DNA of 64,000 bases from Pecten maximus (lineage: Eukaryota): the NCBI RefSeq assembly GCF_902652985.1, contig NC_047015.1:16678001-16742000 (forward strand), in the 5' to 3' direction. The position numbers are program-made. Positions 6,001-39,000 of the stretch are shown one piece after another (the stretch's first letter is position 1; each line of letters opens with the position of its first letter).

Positions 6001-9000
6001 CATGTAACAAAGTGCTAAATCATCATACCTCCTCCAGGTACAATCTAAAGCTGAACACAGTTTTCAATATTTTTAGCACGTCTTGTTTATCTTTGAAATA
6101 TGATTGATCATACTTAAAAAGTCTCTGAAATATGCTCATCCAAAAACGAGATTTAGCCGAGATTTAGCCAAGGTTTACCACAAACCAGGTAAGCTAGTTA
6201 TTGCAACAGGGACAATTGTGCTAGAGCAAAAGGCAATAAACATGATCATGCACTGATATTCGATGGATAAATATGTTCATCAATAAAATGAAAAGCATCC
6301 TCCTACACTGTATAACACTAGTACATGTATTACAAGTATCCTCAGCACTCCAAAAGAAAATAACAATACAGCTCTAGATATCATTTATACAGTCTCAAAT
6401 ATCAGGCAGATTAAGTTGAAGAGGAATGGTTCAGTAACCGAACTTTCAACACCAACTTTACACATTAACTATACATTCTAATGTACTTTGGGATATTTTA
6501 GTTGGGGTCATATTTAGGTTTATTTGGTGCCTGGCATGAAAGTGCCAAAATTTAATACACGGAATTATGTAACGAGTAAGATGTCTATCTTTGTTTGGTG
6601 AAACCATCAACAGGAGTTGTTCATACCTGTAATAGGAGATACATTTCAGACAATGCCTTGTTCATACCTGTAATAGGAGATACATTTCAGACAATGCCTT
6701 GTTCATACCTGTAACAGGAGATACATTTCAGACAATGCCTTGTTCATACCTGTAATAGGAGATACATTTCAGACAATGCCTTGTTCATACCTGTAATAGG
6801 AGATACATTTCAGACAATGCCTTGTTCATACCTGTAACAGGAGATACATTTCAGACAATGCCTTGTTCATACCTGTAACAGGAGATACATTTCAGACAAT
6901 GCCTTGTTCATACCTGTAACAGGAGATACATTTCAGACAATGCCTTGTTCATACCTGTAACAGGAGATACATTTCAGACAATGCCTTGTTCATACCTGTA
7001 ACAGGAGATACATTTCAGACAATGCCTTGTTCATACCTGTAACAGGAGATACATTTCAGACAATGCCTTGTTCATACCTGTAACAGGAGATACATTTCAG
7101 ACAATGCCTTGTTCATACCTGTAACAGGAGATACATTTCAGACAATGCCTTGTTCATACCTGTACTTTTAACATTGTACAATAAACACTACACATACATC
7201 ACCTGAGACTTGATATCTAGGTTTGTGTGTAATCAATAACAAGGAATTATTACAGTATAATGCTGTATATCCAGACTCCTGATGTGTCCACACATCATAA
7301 TGTTGTAATGAATTATAGGAACATCTGCATGACCAAACAGATTAATGTAAAGTATCCCCAAACAGGTTTGATAAAAATCTGTCAACAGAATAACAGAAAC
7401 TTTGTATACAAAATATCAGAAGGTATTATGTCTTCAACCTCTAACAATTAACAGACAACTTAACATCATTGAGCAGGAGTGAAGCCGACACAACACAGTG
7501 CTGTAGGCCAGTAACATAGTAACATCTGTGTCCACACCTTGCATAGATCACCGAGAAAGACCTTAACACCTGTGAAAGGCACAGAGTGACTACCATCATA
7601 TATTCCATACCATACATACATATTCCATCTCACTGTGTTGATCAAAGGTATAGGATAGGTAGCCAGGTGGAAAGTTTTCTGGTACAACTCAGATGAAGAG
7701 TATTCAAATTATCCTGATAACTTATTAGGACAAGGTATAAGTGAATTCCCAATAAAATCCCTACACCATTTATTGTGACATATTGAGTGGTTTAGTCTCC
7801 TAATGTCTGTTTTATATAGGCCTCTGTAAATCTGTACACCATGGGCTCTGACTCCATCATACAGTGTACTGACAAGTCATTCCACCATCAAGCAATATTT
7901 GTGCAATAACTTAACATCACTACACATGTAAGCTAACACAGAACAAAACATAAACATATTTATATATTATCAACATCAATAACGTTCATCTGTGTGTTTT
8001 AAACATCAATACACACTACGTAATCTTTGGTGTTCCAAACCAAAAACTGTGGTATCATGCTAAGGAGTGTATCCCTTCATTGAACAGAGGACAAGTCTTG
8101 TCTAATGAGTTGGTGTGGTCCCAGATTAGAGATCTCGGAGTTTCACAGAGATCAAGGCAGATCTCGGTCGATGCGGACAAGTCTCTCTATGACAGCATCC
8201 AACGCTTTGTGGGTAGGTGTATCACTGAATGCCTCCAGGAAATTCTTGCCCTGCTCCAGACAGTGAGTCAGCTTAGGGTCGAGAGGGATACAGCCTGTAA
8301 AACAGACAGTGAGCCAACTTAGGGTCGAGAGGGATACAGCCTGTAAAACAGTGAGTTAGCTTAGGGTCGAGAGGGATACAGCCTGTTAAACAGACAGCGA
8401 GTCAGCTTAGGGTCGAGATGGATACAGCCTGTAAAACAGACAGTGAGTCAGCTTAGGGTTGAGAGGGATACAGCCTGTAAAACAGTGAGTCAGCTTAGGG
8501 TCGAGATGGATACAGCCTGTAAAACAGTGAGTCAGCTTAGGGTCGAGAGGGATACAGCCTGTAAAACAGACAGTGAGCCAACTTAGGGTCGAGAGGGATA
8601 CAGCCTGTAAAACAGACAGTGAGTCAGCTTAGGGTCGAGAGGGATACAGCCTGTCAAACAGACAGTGAGCCAACTTAGGGTCGAGAGGGATACAGCCTGT
8701 AAAACAGACAGTGAGTCAGCTTAGGGTCGAGAGGGATACAGCCTGTAAAACAGTGAGTCAGCTTAGGGTCGAGAGGGATACAGCCTGTAAAACAGACAGT
8801 GAGTCAGCTTAGGGTCGAGAGGGATACAGCCTGTAAAACAGACAGTGAGCCAACTTAGGGTCGAGAGGGATACAGCCTGTAAAACAGACAGTGAGTCAGC
8901 TTAGGGTCGAGAGGGATACAGCCTGTAAAACAGACAGTGAGTCAGCTTAGGGTCGAGAGGGATACAGCCTGTAAAACAGACAGTGAGCCAGCTTAGGGTC

Positions 9001-36000: not shown

Positions 36001-39000
36001 ATCAAGTCTTTATAGTAATTCCACATCTGTAGCATTCTGGGTGAAACTTTATTATACCATAAAAACAATTTTACAAAGGTCCAGAGGGCCTGTATTGTTC
36101 ACCTGGATATTGCAGTGATCATGGCAAAACACTATACATTTCTACAGAAGAAGAATGATTTCAAAGAATTTCCTCTATTGTGACTCTGCTCATCAAGCCC
36201 ATGGGGCCCTTCCCTCAGCCCCCTGGGGGTCAGATTCTACAAAATTGTTTCCACTTCACCCAAGGATGCTTCAAACCAAATATGGACCAAATCAATTATG
36301 TCCATAATAACAGATAGTGATTCATGGTTTGGTTTAGTATTGTTTAATGTCCTATCAACAGGTAAGGTCATTTAAGAACGGCCTCCCCTGTGTGCGAGAT
36401 GGATGCGTGAGGTGTATGCATGTATAATTTGGGAGGCTGCCGTATATTAATGTTCATCTCTTTGTGATAGCTGAGAACTTATGCTTACATTATAGTGCTA
36501 CCTCACTGAAGCATGCTGCTCAAGACACCCAACAGAACACCCCACCTGGTCACATTATACTGACAATGTGCAAACCTGTCATATCATACCACTCCCAAAA
36601 TCTTGAGCACTAATTAGCAGGAGTAGCAACTTTTTAAAGACTCTGGTATGTTTCAGTCAGGGGAAATAACCCAAAACCTGCCTTACAGGGGAGACCACTC
36701 AACTAAAGACCAAAAGTGAGGCATTTAAAGATTTACTTCTATTACCACTATTGGGCAGAGTCACAATTTATGAAAATTAGTTCCCCTTCCCCAAAGGATG
36801 CTTCTGACCAAATATGGTCAAAATCCATTCAGTACATTATGGCCAGTAGTGGTTTAAAGAAAAAGTTGATGGACGACAAATATTTTCACTACTTTATTGG
36901 CAATTGACTCTGTCATGAAAATTTGATCTGTGAAATAATAAACACAGGTAAAACAGTATCTGTCATAAGGTGACACCCATCTCCAATGCAATCATCCGAA
37001 GTTATTTCAATGATTGGGATTGCATGAAACAATTCTTTTGTTTTAACATACGTATATGTATTTATACAGTTAAAGAGAAGACCAATATTGATTTGGCTTG
37101 CTTTTGGAGAAGCCTTTTATATTATCCAACTTCATTTTGAAGATTATGTGAATGACATTCAGCGCACCATCTTAAGACCTATAGCTATTTCCTTATCATT
37201 TCTAACAACCACGTCTCTCTTTATTTTATCAACTATATGTATACTATTCAAAAGAAATTCCTAAAGGATAAAATCAAGTTTATGTCAAATTTTTTTTCGC
37301 AAGGATTTGAAAAAGAAATTAAATTATTAAATTAGATTACCATTACTGGTTTTATCACACAATACTTTACCAATAGTTACAATAGAAGTACCTTCACATA
37401 TTTATAACATGTTACTTTACCAATAGTTACAATAGAAGTTCCTACATGTGTTTATAACACGTTACTTTACCAATAGTTACAATAGAATTTCCTACACGTA
37501 TTTATAACATGTTACTTTACCAATAGTTACAATAGAAGTTCCTACACGTATTTATAACATGTTACTATACCAATCGTTACAATAGAAGTACCTTCACATA
37601 TTTATAACATGTTACTTTACCAATAGTTACAATAGAAGTTCCTACATGTGTTTATAACACGTTACTTTACCAATAGTTACAATAGAAGTTCCTACACGTA
37701 TTTATAACATGTTACTATACCAATAGTTACAACAGAAGTTCCTACACATGTTTATAACACGTTACTTTACCAATAGTTACAATAGAAGTTCCTACATGTG
37801 GTTATATACACGTTACTTTACCAATAGTTATAATAGAAGTTCCTACACGTATTTATAACATGTTACTATACCAATCGTTACAATAGAAGTACCTTCACAT
37901 ATTTATAACACGTTACTTTACCAATAGTTACAATAGAAGTTCCTACATGTGTTTATAACACGTTACTTTACCAATAGTTACAATAGAAGTTCCTACACAT
38001 GTTTATAACACGTTACTTTACCAATAGTTACAATAGAAGTTCCTACATGTGTTTATAACACGTTACTTTACCAATAGTTACAATAGAAGTTCCTACACAT
38101 GTTTATAACATGTTACTTTACCAATAGTTACAATAGAAGTTCCTACATGTGTTTATAACATGTTACTTTACCAATAGTTACAATAGAAGTTCCTACACTT
38201 ATCTATAACATGTTACTTTACCAATAGTTACAATAGAAGTTCCTACATGTATTTATAACATGTTACTTTACCAATAGTTACAATAGAAGTTCCTACATGT
38301 GTTTATAACATGTTACTTTACCAATAGTTACAATAGTTACAATAGAAGTTCCTACATGTGTTTATAACATGTTACTTTACCAATAGTTACAATAGTTACA
38401 ATAGAAGTTCCTACACTTATCTATAACATGTTACTATACCAATAGTTACAATAGAAGTTCCTACACGTATTTATAACATGTTACTTTACCAATAGTTACA
38501 ATAGAAGTTCCTACACGTATTTATAACATGTTACTATACCAATAGTTACAATAGAAGTTCCTATATGTGTTTATAACATGTTACTTTACCAATAGTTACA
38601 ATAGTTCCTACATGTGTTTATAACACGTTACTTTACCAATAGTTACAATAGAAGTTCCTACATGTGTTTATAACATGTTACTTTACCAATAGTTACAATA
38701 GTTCCTACATGTGTTTATAACATGTTACTTTACCAATAGTTACAATAGAAGTTCCTACACTTATCTATAACACTTGTACAGTGGTATATTAAATACAAAC
38801 TGTAAATACTAAACTGCAAACGAAACATTTGTTGAATCAATTCAAAGGTTTTTAAATTATTATGCCATGTAATTGACAAAAAAATAACATAACTGAATGT
38901 GTCATCAATTCAAATGATTAAATCAATTAGAATTTATTAAATTTCAGAATATGGAAAATACTTTCTAAATTTCTTGATGAAAAACTCTTGAACAAAGAGT

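What the first reader, a model, noticed from the sequence alone, without database searches (positions are those of the whole stretch)
6617..38773. Recurring pattern: minisatellites seeded at or containing splice signals of the transcribed strand
Seen: three arrays are clearly junction-derived (8258, 10663, 30389). Others carry splice-like motifs on the same minus (gene) strand or abut an exon. Five arrays have similar unit sizes of 41-56 bp. Inference: a lineage-specific mutational process may preferentially amplify exon-intron borders, for example through transcription/R-loop or nucleosome-edge slippage or rolling-circle reinsertion. That would be a route to new micro-exons and introns. I do not know of a description of this as a genome-wide system.
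Basis: inference. Interest (0 to 1): 0.7.

Follow-up and report, generated by a model that had tools for sequence, protein, structure and literature searches.

The report
Splice-junction minisatellites ("mirages") in scallop NUBP2
Two tandem-repeat arrays in a scallop iron-sulfur assembly gene are built from copies of its own exon-intron borders, a repeat type already described in lancelets and in some human genes, while the other arrays nearby are ordinary intron repeats.

Summary
The window is king scallop (Pecten maximus or a near relative), not human. Nine minisatellites fill 19.8% of it.

Two are truly built from splice junctions of NUBP2 on the minus strand:
- 10646-11986: 56-bp unit (last 39 nt of exon 6 + first 17 nt of intron 6). 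It holds 23 identical ACA|GTAAGT donors.
- 8257-10186: 46-bp unit (last 8 nt of intron 7 + first 38 nt of exon 8). It holds 43 ACAG|GCTG acceptors, and only the last joins the rest of the exon.

The annotated 246-aa isoform X2 ends exactly as predicted for splicing into a decoy acceptor; 13 of 42 decoys give that tail.

The third "junction-derived" array (30398) lies inside EME1 intron 5, at no annotated junction. Array 32568 starts 9 nt after a donor but shares no exon sequence. Arrays 29510 and 57072 are one dispersed family. 37363 is deep intronic. 6617 has strong AG|GT motifs but no known junction.

Junction overlap is not clearly above chance (P 0.024-0.16). The phenomenon is in print as amphioxus "mirages" and human F7-type minisatellites. 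Verdict: new member of a known kind. A junction-preferring process remains untested.

The parts
10646..11986 (-). Donor 'mirage': 56-bp minisatellite, 23.9 copies. The unit is the last 39 nt of NUBP2 exon 6 plus the first 17 nt of intron 6. It holds 23 exact ACA|GTAAGT sites at 56-nt spacing (1 authentic at 11947, 22 decoys); the 24th copy is degenerate.
8257..10186 (-). Acceptor 'mirage': 46-bp minisatellite, 43.1 copies. The unit is the last 8 nt of intron 7 (TTTTACAG) plus the first 38 nt of exon 8. It holds 43 ACAG|GCTG sites (42 decoys; the authentic one is last, with the exon starting at 8294). Of 42 anchor-to-anchor units, 30 are 46 nt, 9 are 42 nt and 3 are 41 nt.
11948..12058 (-). NUBP2 exon 6 ([37 protein letters not shown]), phase-0 donor. 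Its 3' end is the first unit of the donor array.
   Evidence: (Pfam PF10609)
10367..10436 (-). NUBP2 exon 7 (70 nt, ECTNIFSKGGGESLAKQFHVPFLG), unique sequence lying between the two arrays.
8152..8294 (-). NUBP2 exon 8 coding part with stop codon (GCIPLDPKLTHCLEQGKNF...DRDLP*). Its first 38 nt are the last unit of the acceptor array.
30398..30917 (-). 79-bp array x6.7 inside EME1 intron 5. The unit is an acceptor-like site + 33 nt + ATG|GTAAGT + 46 nt of flank. It is a pseudo-exon or unannotated poison exon, not an annotated junction.
32568..33645 (-). 46-bp array x23.5 starting 9 nt after the EME1 exon 3 donor (G at 33654). It shares no sequence with the exon and its splice-like motifs are at chance level.
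29510..30174 (-). 41/85-bp array x15.9 in EME1 intron 5. It belongs to a dispersed family shared with 57072-57474, including at least 66 nt of flank (30175-30240).
57072..57474 (-).
37363..38772 (-). 50-bp array x27.9 deep in EME1 intron 1 (360 nt below the exon 1 donor at 39132). Motifs are at chance level.
6617..7164 (-). 41-bp array x13.4, 99% identical copies, about 1 kb past the NUBP2 stop. Every copy has CAG|GTATGA. A strong acceptor-like site arises only at unit-to-unit joins. No junction is known here.
696..5473 (.). Minus-strand motifs are weak (donor p=0.034, acceptor p=0.084). No gene was mapped here.
33655..33825 (-). EME1 exon 3 (FMKVVLDTHL...ECEITEGK), whose donor is abutted by array 32568-33645.

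Best explanation
Two of the arrays are boundary-spanning minisatellites of the kind named 'mirages' in amphioxus.

Origin (inferred): a short segment straddling a NUBP2 splice junction was duplicated in tandem, probably by slippage between short direct repeats. TTGGT flanks the donor unit, and CACTG flanks the acceptor unit. Unequal exchange or slippage then expanded each to 24 and 43 copies, in a genome where tandem repeats are very abundant.

Why they persist (inferred): such duplications are tolerated because one end copy stays joined to the rest of the exon, so the normal mRNA can still be made. The extra copies sit in the intron as decoy splice sites.

Donor side: the authentic site is the most upstream of 23. 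That is the site a 5'-to-3' choice favours, as shown experimentally for human F7. Both annotated isoforms have the normal exon 6-exon 7 join (shown).

Acceptor side: the authentic site is the most downstream of 43 near-identical sites. Decoy use is therefore expected, and the annotated isoform X2 has exactly the predicted tail. X2 loses the last 28 positions of the NTPase domain profile (shown at annotation level; RNA support was not visible to me).

The remaining arrays in the span are ordinary intronic or intergenic minisatellites: one carried by a dispersed element, one next to a donor by position only, one deep intronic, and two with unexplained AG|GT-type motifs. No junction-seeking process is needed to explain the window.
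For: - Exon maps by tblastn with named scallop proteins, and exact GT-AG junctions.
- Array units in register with the exons.
- 23 donors and 43 acceptors counted.
- Isoform X1 has the normal C-terminus. X2 ends GCIPLDPKLTHCLFYRLYPSRP, which 13 of 42 decoy acceptors encode.
- X1 covers Pfam PF10609 profile positions 2-245 of 246; X2 covers 2-217.
- Use of the second donor would give a stop after 9 codons.
- End copies of both arrays are the most diverged, as reported for mirages.
- Direct repeats at the ancestral unit borders can be read.
- Arrays make up 19.8% of the window. Tandem repeats make up 21.7% of another scallop assembly (PMC10225492, passage).
- Overlap null: P=0.024 to 0.16.
- 29510 and 57072 are one dispersed family.
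- 32568 shows no exon similarity.
- Precedents: PMC1557585 (passages), PMC3087553 (section 16 read whole), PMC3902484 (one passage).
Against: - Two mirages in adjacent introns of one small gene has P about 0.05 under uniform seeding. Three arrays at or within 10 nt of a junction has P 0.004 (whole window) to 0.06 (gene bodies). A junction bias is therefore not excluded.
- Arrays 6617, 30398 and 696 carry stronger minus-strand splice-like motifs than random segments (p 0.006-0.084). No plus-strand value falls below 0.048. A purely random origin does not predict this.
- The donor half of the 56-bp unit never varies in 23 copies (longest invariant run 28 columns, P=0.00018). This hints at constraint rather than neutral decoys.
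- The slippage origin rests on 5-nt direct repeats read from one sequence, with no outgroup.
- X2 is a computed annotation, and I could not see the reads behind it.
- The arrays have no independent sighting: the 447-aa spurious ORF through the donor array found nothing.
Confidence: 0.72

Rival explanations
1. A lineage-specific mutational process preferentially amplifies exon-intron borders. Something about splice junctions in transcribed DNA, such as transcription-coupled events, chromatin edges or splicing-linked damage, raises the birth rate of tandem duplications there. Mirages would then be over-represented genome-wide.
For: - Two junction arrays sit in adjacent introns of one gene (P=0.05). 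Two or more of 9 arrays covering a junction has P=0.024. Three at or within 10 nt has P=0.004-0.06.
- Minus-strand motifs are enriched in 6617, 30398 and 696, but nothing comparable appears on the plus strand.
- In amphioxus, mirages have been met repeatedly in single-gene studies (Adh3, TnC, globins, PGBD5). The authors call their mechanism unclear and the phenomenon possibly general.
Against: - 5 of 7 arrays in the span are not built from an annotated junction.
- One array is a dispersed family.
- 32568 shares nothing with the exon it abuts.
- The acceptor-like site of 6617 is a product of the array, not its seed.
- RNA-strand GC skew is negative in 4 of 9 arrays, including the acceptor mirage (-0.30). 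This goes against an R-loop cause.
- Only 1 of 9 units folds better than shuffles.
- A low-threshold TRF run found no young 2-copy duplications at the other junctions; the one weak 15-nt x2.2 repeat over the EME1 exon 10 acceptor was judged chance.
- With gene bodies as the null space, P(>=2)=0.16.
- The window was picked after the pattern was seen.
Confidence: 0.17
2. The junction arrays are kept by selection as splicing regulators. The decoy acceptors would set the ratio of full-length to C-terminally truncated NUBP2. The decoy donors would act as U1-binding sites that help define intron 6 or protect the transcript.
For: - 28 consecutive columns including the donor 9-mer are invariant in 23 copies (P=0.00018). 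That is 0 of 189 cells changed in the donor 9-mer against 36 of 987 elsewhere.
- An annotated isoform uses a decoy acceptor.
- All 43 acceptors keep the anchor ACAG|GCTG (the copies were counted by searching for that anchor).
Against: - Variable columns in the acceptor array are spread over the unit and include the TTTTACAG tract (column 42 differs in 5 of the 30 46-nt units).
- The three other scallop species in the 90% cluster show only the 271-aa form.
- X2 lacks 28 profile positions of a conserved domain, so it looks like a by-product.
- Concerted evolution can make parts of units look conserved.
- Mirages in amphioxus are reported as unstable and without effect on splicing.
Confidence: 0.07
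3. The arrays are assembly artefacts of a repeat-rich long-read assembly.
For: No independent sighting was obtained. I saw only one assembly-derived sequence.
Against: - Copies differ by shared substitutions and by 41/42/46-nt length variants in an ordered pattern, with diverged end copies.
- Array ends are in exact register with intact exons.
- The public annotation contains an isoform that needs the array, although it may rest on the same assembly.
Confidence: 0.04

Closest known systems
[quoted passage not shown] Sources: PMC3087553 (section 16 read) and PMC3902484 (one passage).
   Same: Tandem units span an exon-intron boundary. Both 5' and 3' boundaries occur. Splice signals are reiterated. 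End copies escape homogenisation. The same link to Rogers-type intron gain was proposed.
   Different: Here the host is a mollusc, not a cephalochordate. Copy numbers are much higher (24 and 43, against 3-6 units for BflGb6). Units are shorter than the globin ones (46-56 bp against about 150-160 bp) but within the quoted Adh3 range of 10-72 bp. The amphioxus papers report no aberrant mRNAs, whereas here an annotated isoform uses a decoy acceptor.
Human boundary-spanning intronic minisatellites: F7 IVS7 (37 bp), IFI 6-16 intron 2, CBS IVS13, LMNB2, PDGF intron 4. Source: PMC1557585 (abstract and passages read).
   Same: The first monomer spans the exon-intron boundary, so the authentic donor is followed by identical pseudo-donors. 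The most upstream site is used. This fits the scallop donor array and the normal exon 6-7 join in both annotated isoforms.
   Different: All examples listed in the passages I read are donor-side. The scallop acceptor array, where the authentic site is the last of 43, has no counterpart in those passages. No experiment exists for the scallop.
Intron gain by tandem duplication across AG|GT proto-splice sites (the Rogers model, as cited in PMC3087553 section 16). A potato RdRp case, PMC4974935, was seen in a search listing only.
   Same: Array 6617 (CAG|GTATGA in every unit) and array 30398 have the sequence layout this model needs.
   Different: No new intron or exon is shown here. The 33-nt pseudo-exon would bring a stop into EME1 (phase read). 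Array 6617 lies outside any mapped coding exon.
Satellite-like arrays dispersed by non-autonomous Helentron elements in the Pacific oyster. Source: PMC7492417 (title and abstract start only).
   Same: The 41-bp array family at 29510 and 57072 recurs with a shared flank, as arrays carried by a mobile element do.
   Different: Helitron/Helentron hallmarks were not looked for. Only two copies were seen. This explains one family, not the junction arrays.

Membership tests
Mirage (boundary-spanning minisatellite, amphioxus sense) | Head-to-tail tandem repeats of minisatellite unit size | tested here: met
   TRF: 56 bp x23.9 at 95% matches and 46 bp x43.1 at 92% matches
Mirage (boundary-spanning minisatellite, amphioxus sense) | The unit contains both exon and intron sequence of a real junction, and one end copy is continuous with the authentic exon | tested here: met
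   For 10646-11986 (39 nt exon 6 + 17 nt intron 6) and 8257-10186 (8 nt intron 7 + 38 nt exon 8). Not met for 30398, 32568, 29510, 37363 and 6617.
Mirage (boundary-spanning minisatellite, amphioxus sense) | The splice signal is reiterated in the copies | tested here: met
   23 of 24 copies keep ACA|GTAAGT; 43 ACAG|GCTG acceptors
Mirage (boundary-spanning minisatellite, amphioxus sense) | Regular splicing of the host gene is preserved | tested here: inconclusive
   Annotated X1 (271 aa) has both normal joins, but annotated X2 (246 aa) uses a decoy acceptor. No RNA data were visible.
Mirage (boundary-spanning minisatellite, amphioxus sense) | Length instability or polymorphism between haplotypes | not testable with these tools
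   Only one sequence of the locus was available. No scallop genome or read collection was open.
F7-type donor minisatellite (human) | The first monomer spans the exon-intron boundary, and the authentic donor is followed by identical pseudo-donors | tested here: met
   Authentic donor at 11947, followed by 22 identical 9-mers at 56-nt spacing
F7-type donor minisatellite (human) | Only the most upstream donor is used | tested here: inconclusive
   Both annotated proteins read ...CPHCT|ECTNIF..., which fits use of the upstream donor. This is annotation only.
Array carried by a mobile element (oyster Helentron type) | The same array with a shared non-repeat flank at unlinked sites | tested here: met
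   29510-30240 matches 57053-57572 at 76-78% identity, including the flank. This applies to that family only.
Array carried by a mobile element (oyster Helentron type) | Helitron/Helentron termini or a Rep/helicase partner | not tested
   Not looked for
Rogers-type new intron from tandem duplication | The duplicated AG|GT sites are actually spliced so that the mRNA is restored | not testable with these tools
   The sequence layout is present in 6617. No transcript data.

The most novel reading that the evidence does not exclude
Scallops, like amphioxus, may have a genuine excess of minisatellites born at splice junctions. If so, 'mirage' formation would be a general, convergent property of tandem-repeat-rich marine invertebrate genomes, and a steady source of decoy splice sites, truncated isoforms and, now and then, new introns or micro-exons. 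The invariant donor half of the 56-bp unit would then mark decoys that are bound and constrained rather than inert.
Probability: 0.17. Interest if true: 0.6.

Novelty: new member of a known kind. Interest (0 to 1): 0.33.

Why it matters
Boundary-spanning minisatellites are natural experiments in splice-site choice. The human F7 array was used to show that the most upstream of several identical donors wins (PMC1557585). The scallop NUBP2 gene offers the mirror case: 43 near-identical acceptors of which only the last gives the full protein, with an annotated isoform that uses a decoy. That makes 3' splice-site choice among identical sites testable in a natural gene.

It also extends 'mirages' from cephalochordates to a mollusc. 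My literature searches turned up no mollusc report and no genome-wide test of whether junctions are favoured. That question stays open and is easy to answer with public scallop assemblies.

For annotation, such arrays are a source of spurious or truncated isoforms and of long false ORFs, such as the 447-aa plus-strand frame through the donor array.

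Tried and rejected
- **Micro-exon reading of array 30398.** The 33-nt segment is absent from 4 of 4 scallop EME1 proteins. Mizuhopecten isoforms X1 and X2 differ by 2 aa, not 11. In the phase left by exon 5 (two bases carried over) it reads into a stop by my direct reading. The unit shows no significant similarity to the exon 5 or exon 6 junction regions (shuffle fractions 0.143 and 0.273).
- **Array 32568 as a degenerate mirage of exon 3.** Rejected: local alignment score 10 against a shuffle mean of 12.5.
- **Other copies of array units in the window.** None at E<=1 beyond 11-16-nt chance matches, except the 29510/57072 family.
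- **Young 2-copy duplications at the other junctions.** TRF at minimum score 30 over 7000-40000 gave 35 rows. Only a weak 15-nt x2.2 repeat (23684-23717) overlaps a junction, the EME1 exon 10 acceptor. I judged it chance.
- **Hairpin-driven slippage.** Only the 8257 unit folds better than shuffles (z=-2.99, 0 of 200 shuffles). The other 8 of 9 do not.
- **R-loop idea.** RNA-strand GC skew is mixed in sign.
- **Independent sighting of the donor array.** A search with its 447-aa plus-strand ORF gave no hit at E<=1e-5 among proteins of 245-783 aa.
- **Rfam at gathering thresholds.** It found only a tRNA at 53157-53227 and nothing in any array.
- **Recursive-splice-site reading of 6617.** Considered but not testable here.
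- **** failed on a frame slip in one coordinate pair. It was corrected and rerun.

Full report
**What the window is.** The window has no N, 36% G+C and a CpG observed/expected ratio of 0.38. A single-exon search returned the annotated EME1-like protein of Pecten maximus at 98% identity, with other scallops at 60-66%. Its exons map at 97-100% identity, apart from run-on at HSP edges. The NUBP2 exons match the P. maximus protein P0126. I therefore take the window for king scallop or a very near relative, not human.

**Genes.** On the minus strand:
- NUBP2 runs from a start codon near 17982 to a stop at 8152-8154. The exons mapped by tblastn and GT-AG continuity are 14108-13989, 13677-13589, 13254-13145, 12781-12627, 12058-11948, 10436-10367 and 8294-8155 (Pfam PF10609).
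- EME1-like has ten coding exons between 39714 and 23615 (Pfam PF21292).

On the plus strand lie an MXRA7-like gene (18.0-21.5 kb), a cold-shock-domain gene (41.7-42.3 kb) and a ribosomal L27-like gene (45.3 kb). It holds two minus-strand genes with a plus-strand gene between them.

**The observation.** TRF confirms seven arrays in the span and two more outside it. From their coordinates they total 12,673 nt, or 19.8% of the window.

*Array 10646-11986.* Printed on the minus strand, it begins with a unit continuous with exon 6...[15 protein letters not shown] followed by GTAAGT. The 56-bp unit is the last 39 nt of exon 6 plus the first 17 nt of intron 6. There are 23 exact ACA|GTAAGT 9-mers at exactly 56-nt spacing, the first being the authentic donor at 11947. 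The 24th copy is degenerate.

*Array 8257-10186.* It ends with a unit continuous with exon 8. The 46-bp unit is TTTTACAG plus the first 38 nt of the exon (GCIPLDPKLTHCL). There are 43 ACAG|GCTG acceptors, and only the last, at 8295/8294, leads into EQGKNF...DRDLP.

Exon 7 (70 nt) lies in unique sequence between the two arrays. These two arrays are junction-derived beyond reasonable doubt.

**A prediction that held.** Reading from a decoy acceptor in the phase left by exon 7 gives GCIPLDPKLTHCLFYRLYPSRP and a stop, which makes a 246-aa protein. I derived this before seeing the annotation. The 90% cluster of scallop NUBP2 proteins holds P. maximus isoform X1 (271 aa, normal end) and isoform X2 (246 aa, ending exactly in that tail).
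- 13 of the 42 decoys encode this exact tail. None of them is among the four most upstream.
- X2 covers positions 2-217 of the 246-position Pfam profile, against 2-245 for X1.
- The three other scallop species in the cluster show only the 271-aa form.
- Whether reads support X2 is not visible to me.
- Use of the second donor would add VSVTLVYIT and a stop. Both annotated isoforms have the normal exon 6-7 join.

**The other arrays.**
- *30398-30917 (79 bp).* It lies inside EME1 intron 5, about 140 nt below the exon 5 donor (31055). Its unit holds an acceptor-like site, 33 nt and ATG|GTAAGT. In the first copy the acceptor-like site (30914) sits in non-repeat flank, so a pseudo-exon existed before amplification. 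The 33 nt are absent from 4 of 4 scallop EME1 proteins. In the phase left by exon 5 they run into a stop (direct reading). Mizuhopecten isoforms differ by 2 aa only. The unit has no significant similarity to the neighbouring real junctions. It is a pseudo-exon or an unannotated poison exon, so it is not 'clearly junction-derived'.
- *32568-33645.* It starts 9 nt after the exon 3 donor (33654) but shares nothing with the exon (alignment score below the shuffle mean). Its motifs are at chance level.
- *29510-30174.* It belongs to one family with 57072-57474, including at least 66 nt of flank. It is therefore a dispersed, presumably mobile, array. Oyster Helentron-borne arrays are a precedent (PMC7492417, abstract start only).
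- *37363-38772.* It is 360 nt inside intron 1, with motifs at chance level.
- *6617-7164.* It lies about 1 kb past the NUBP2 stop, beyond the first AATAAA (7774) but ahead of two further signals at 6556 and 6524. Every copy has CAG|GTATGA. A strong acceptor-like site appears only where one unit meets the next and is missing upstream of the first copy. The acceptor signal is thus a product of the array, not its seed.

**Chance.** I built splice matrices from 15 donors and 14 acceptors of this window. Each circularised unit was scored on both strands against 4,000 matched random scores (2,000 random segments, each scored on both strands). The real donors here are diverse (GTACTG, GTTTGT, GTGACA and others), and 9-24% of random units reach the median real-site score.

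Minus-strand p-values:

| Array | Donor | Acceptor |
|---|---|---|
| 6617 | 0.009 | 0.006 |
| 8257 | 0.522 | 0.004 |
| 30398 | 0.036 | 0.068 |
| 696 | 0.034 | 0.084 |
| 10646 | 0.114 | 0.873 |
| 29510, 32568, 37363, 57072 | all >0.18 | all >0.18 |

On the plus strand no value is below 0.048. The authentic sites of arrays 8257 and 10646 were themselves part of the training set.

For junction overlap I collapsed each array to one unit, giving 51,755 nt, and seeded units at random.
- With 9 arrays and the 30 mapped junctions of two genes, P(>=2 cover a junction)=0.024. This is too small a P, because the junctions of the other genes were not mapped.
- With 6 arrays placed within the two gene bodies, P(>=2)=0.16.
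- At or within 10 nt of a junction, P(>=3)=0.004 (whole window) and 0.06 (gene bodies).
- Both NUBP2 arrays on junctions: P=0.05.

Since the window was flagged because of this pattern, these values are suggestive at most.

**Mechanism.**
- *Shown:* unit composition, register, counts, diverged end copies, and annotation-level use of a decoy.
- *Inferred origin:* slippage or unequal exchange. TTGGT occurs just before the exon part of the donor unit and again at the unit's intron end. CACTG occurs just upstream of the ancestral acceptor tract and again 38 nt into exon 8. The acceptor array also holds 42-nt and 41-nt unit variants (9 and 3 of 42) that fit alternative registers.
- *Inferred survival:* a duplication across a junction leaves one intact exon-plus-site copy at one end, so it is tolerated like an intronic one. 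Duplications inside exons are not.
RNA-strand GC skew is negative in 4 of 9 arrays, including -0.30 for the acceptor array. Only the 8257 unit folds better than shuffles as single-stranded DNA.

**One unexplained point.** In the donor array all 14 variable columns lie in columns 4-27 plus column 56. Columns 28-55, which include the donor 9-mer, never vary in 23 copies (P=0.00018 for so long an invariant run). The acceptor array shows no such pattern.

**What is known.**
- PMC1557585 (abstract and passages read) describes the human F7 intron 7 minisatellite, whose first 37-bp unit spans the exon 7 boundary. It lists IFI 6-16, CBS, LMNB2 and PDGF as further cases, and shows that the most upstream of identical donors is chosen.
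- PMC3087553 (section 16 read whole) describes 'mirages' in amphioxus globin genes, citing Adh3 and other loci. These are minisatellite-like duplications of either the 5' or the 3' boundary, with concerted evolution that spares end copies and no disturbance of splicing. It sets out a model of intron gain from them.
- PMC3902484 (one passage) adds PGBD5 and troponin C.
- Tandem repeats make up 21.7% of another scallop assembly (PMC10225492, passages).

What I did not find, in searches of the held library, is a mollusc case or a genome-wide test of junction preference. That library lacks most subscription papers, and supplements were closed.

**What stayed unchecked.** This covers the genome-wide test, the orthologous introns of other scallops, population copy number and all RNA evidence. 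The only genome collection open to me holds bacteria and archaea. A search with the 447-aa spurious ORF through the donor array found nothing.

**Verdict.** The finding is a new member of a known kind. Its main points of interest are the 43-fold acceptor array with an annotated decoy isoform and the invariant donor half of the 56-bp unit.

Noticed in passing
window 10646-11986: In the 56-bp donor array, every variable column lies in the exon-derived columns 4-27 (plus column 56). Columns 28-55, including the donor 9-mer, are invariant in 23 copies (P=0.00018 for the run).
   Followed up: partly
window 17960-18350: The NUBP2 start codon (about 17982, minus strand) and the first long open frame on the plus strand (18056-18343; it had no Pfam hit itself, and the MXRA7 domain match is at 21251-21541) lie under 100 nt apart, head to head. 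This suggests a shared divergent promoter.
   Followed up: no
window 10645-11988 (+): The donor array is open on the plus strand for 447 aa, with further frames of 394 and 276 aa. It is a spurious repeat ORF that gene callers could mistake for a protein. No relatives were found.
   Followed up: yes
window 53157-53228 (+) and 41015-41089 (-): tRNA-Gly(CCC) is found by both Rfam and ARAGORN. A tRNA-Ser(TGA)-like sequence is found by ARAGORN only, so it may be part of a tRNA-derived repeat.
   Followed up: no
window 63549-63714 and 63814-63979: A 166-nt direct repeat at 99% identity, with copy starts 265 nt apart.
   Followed up: no
window 15431-15990 and 36723-36873: A degenerate tandem of about 150 bp (69-77% identity) in NUBP2 intron 1 is related to a segment in EME1 intron 1. 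This is an old dispersed repeat family.
   Followed up: no
window 19705-20139: A 135/143-bp tandem repeat of 2-3 copies at 81-86% matches, in the region of the MXRA7-like gene.
   Followed up: no
window 43372-43984 (+) and 60604-61396 (-): Open frames that look by eye like reverse-transcriptase fragments of non-LTR retrotransposons. They were not tested against any family library.
   Followed up: no
window 8257-10186: As single-stranded DNA, two units of the acceptor array fold better than all 200 shuffles (z=-2.99). This is the only array of nine to do so.
   Followed up: partly
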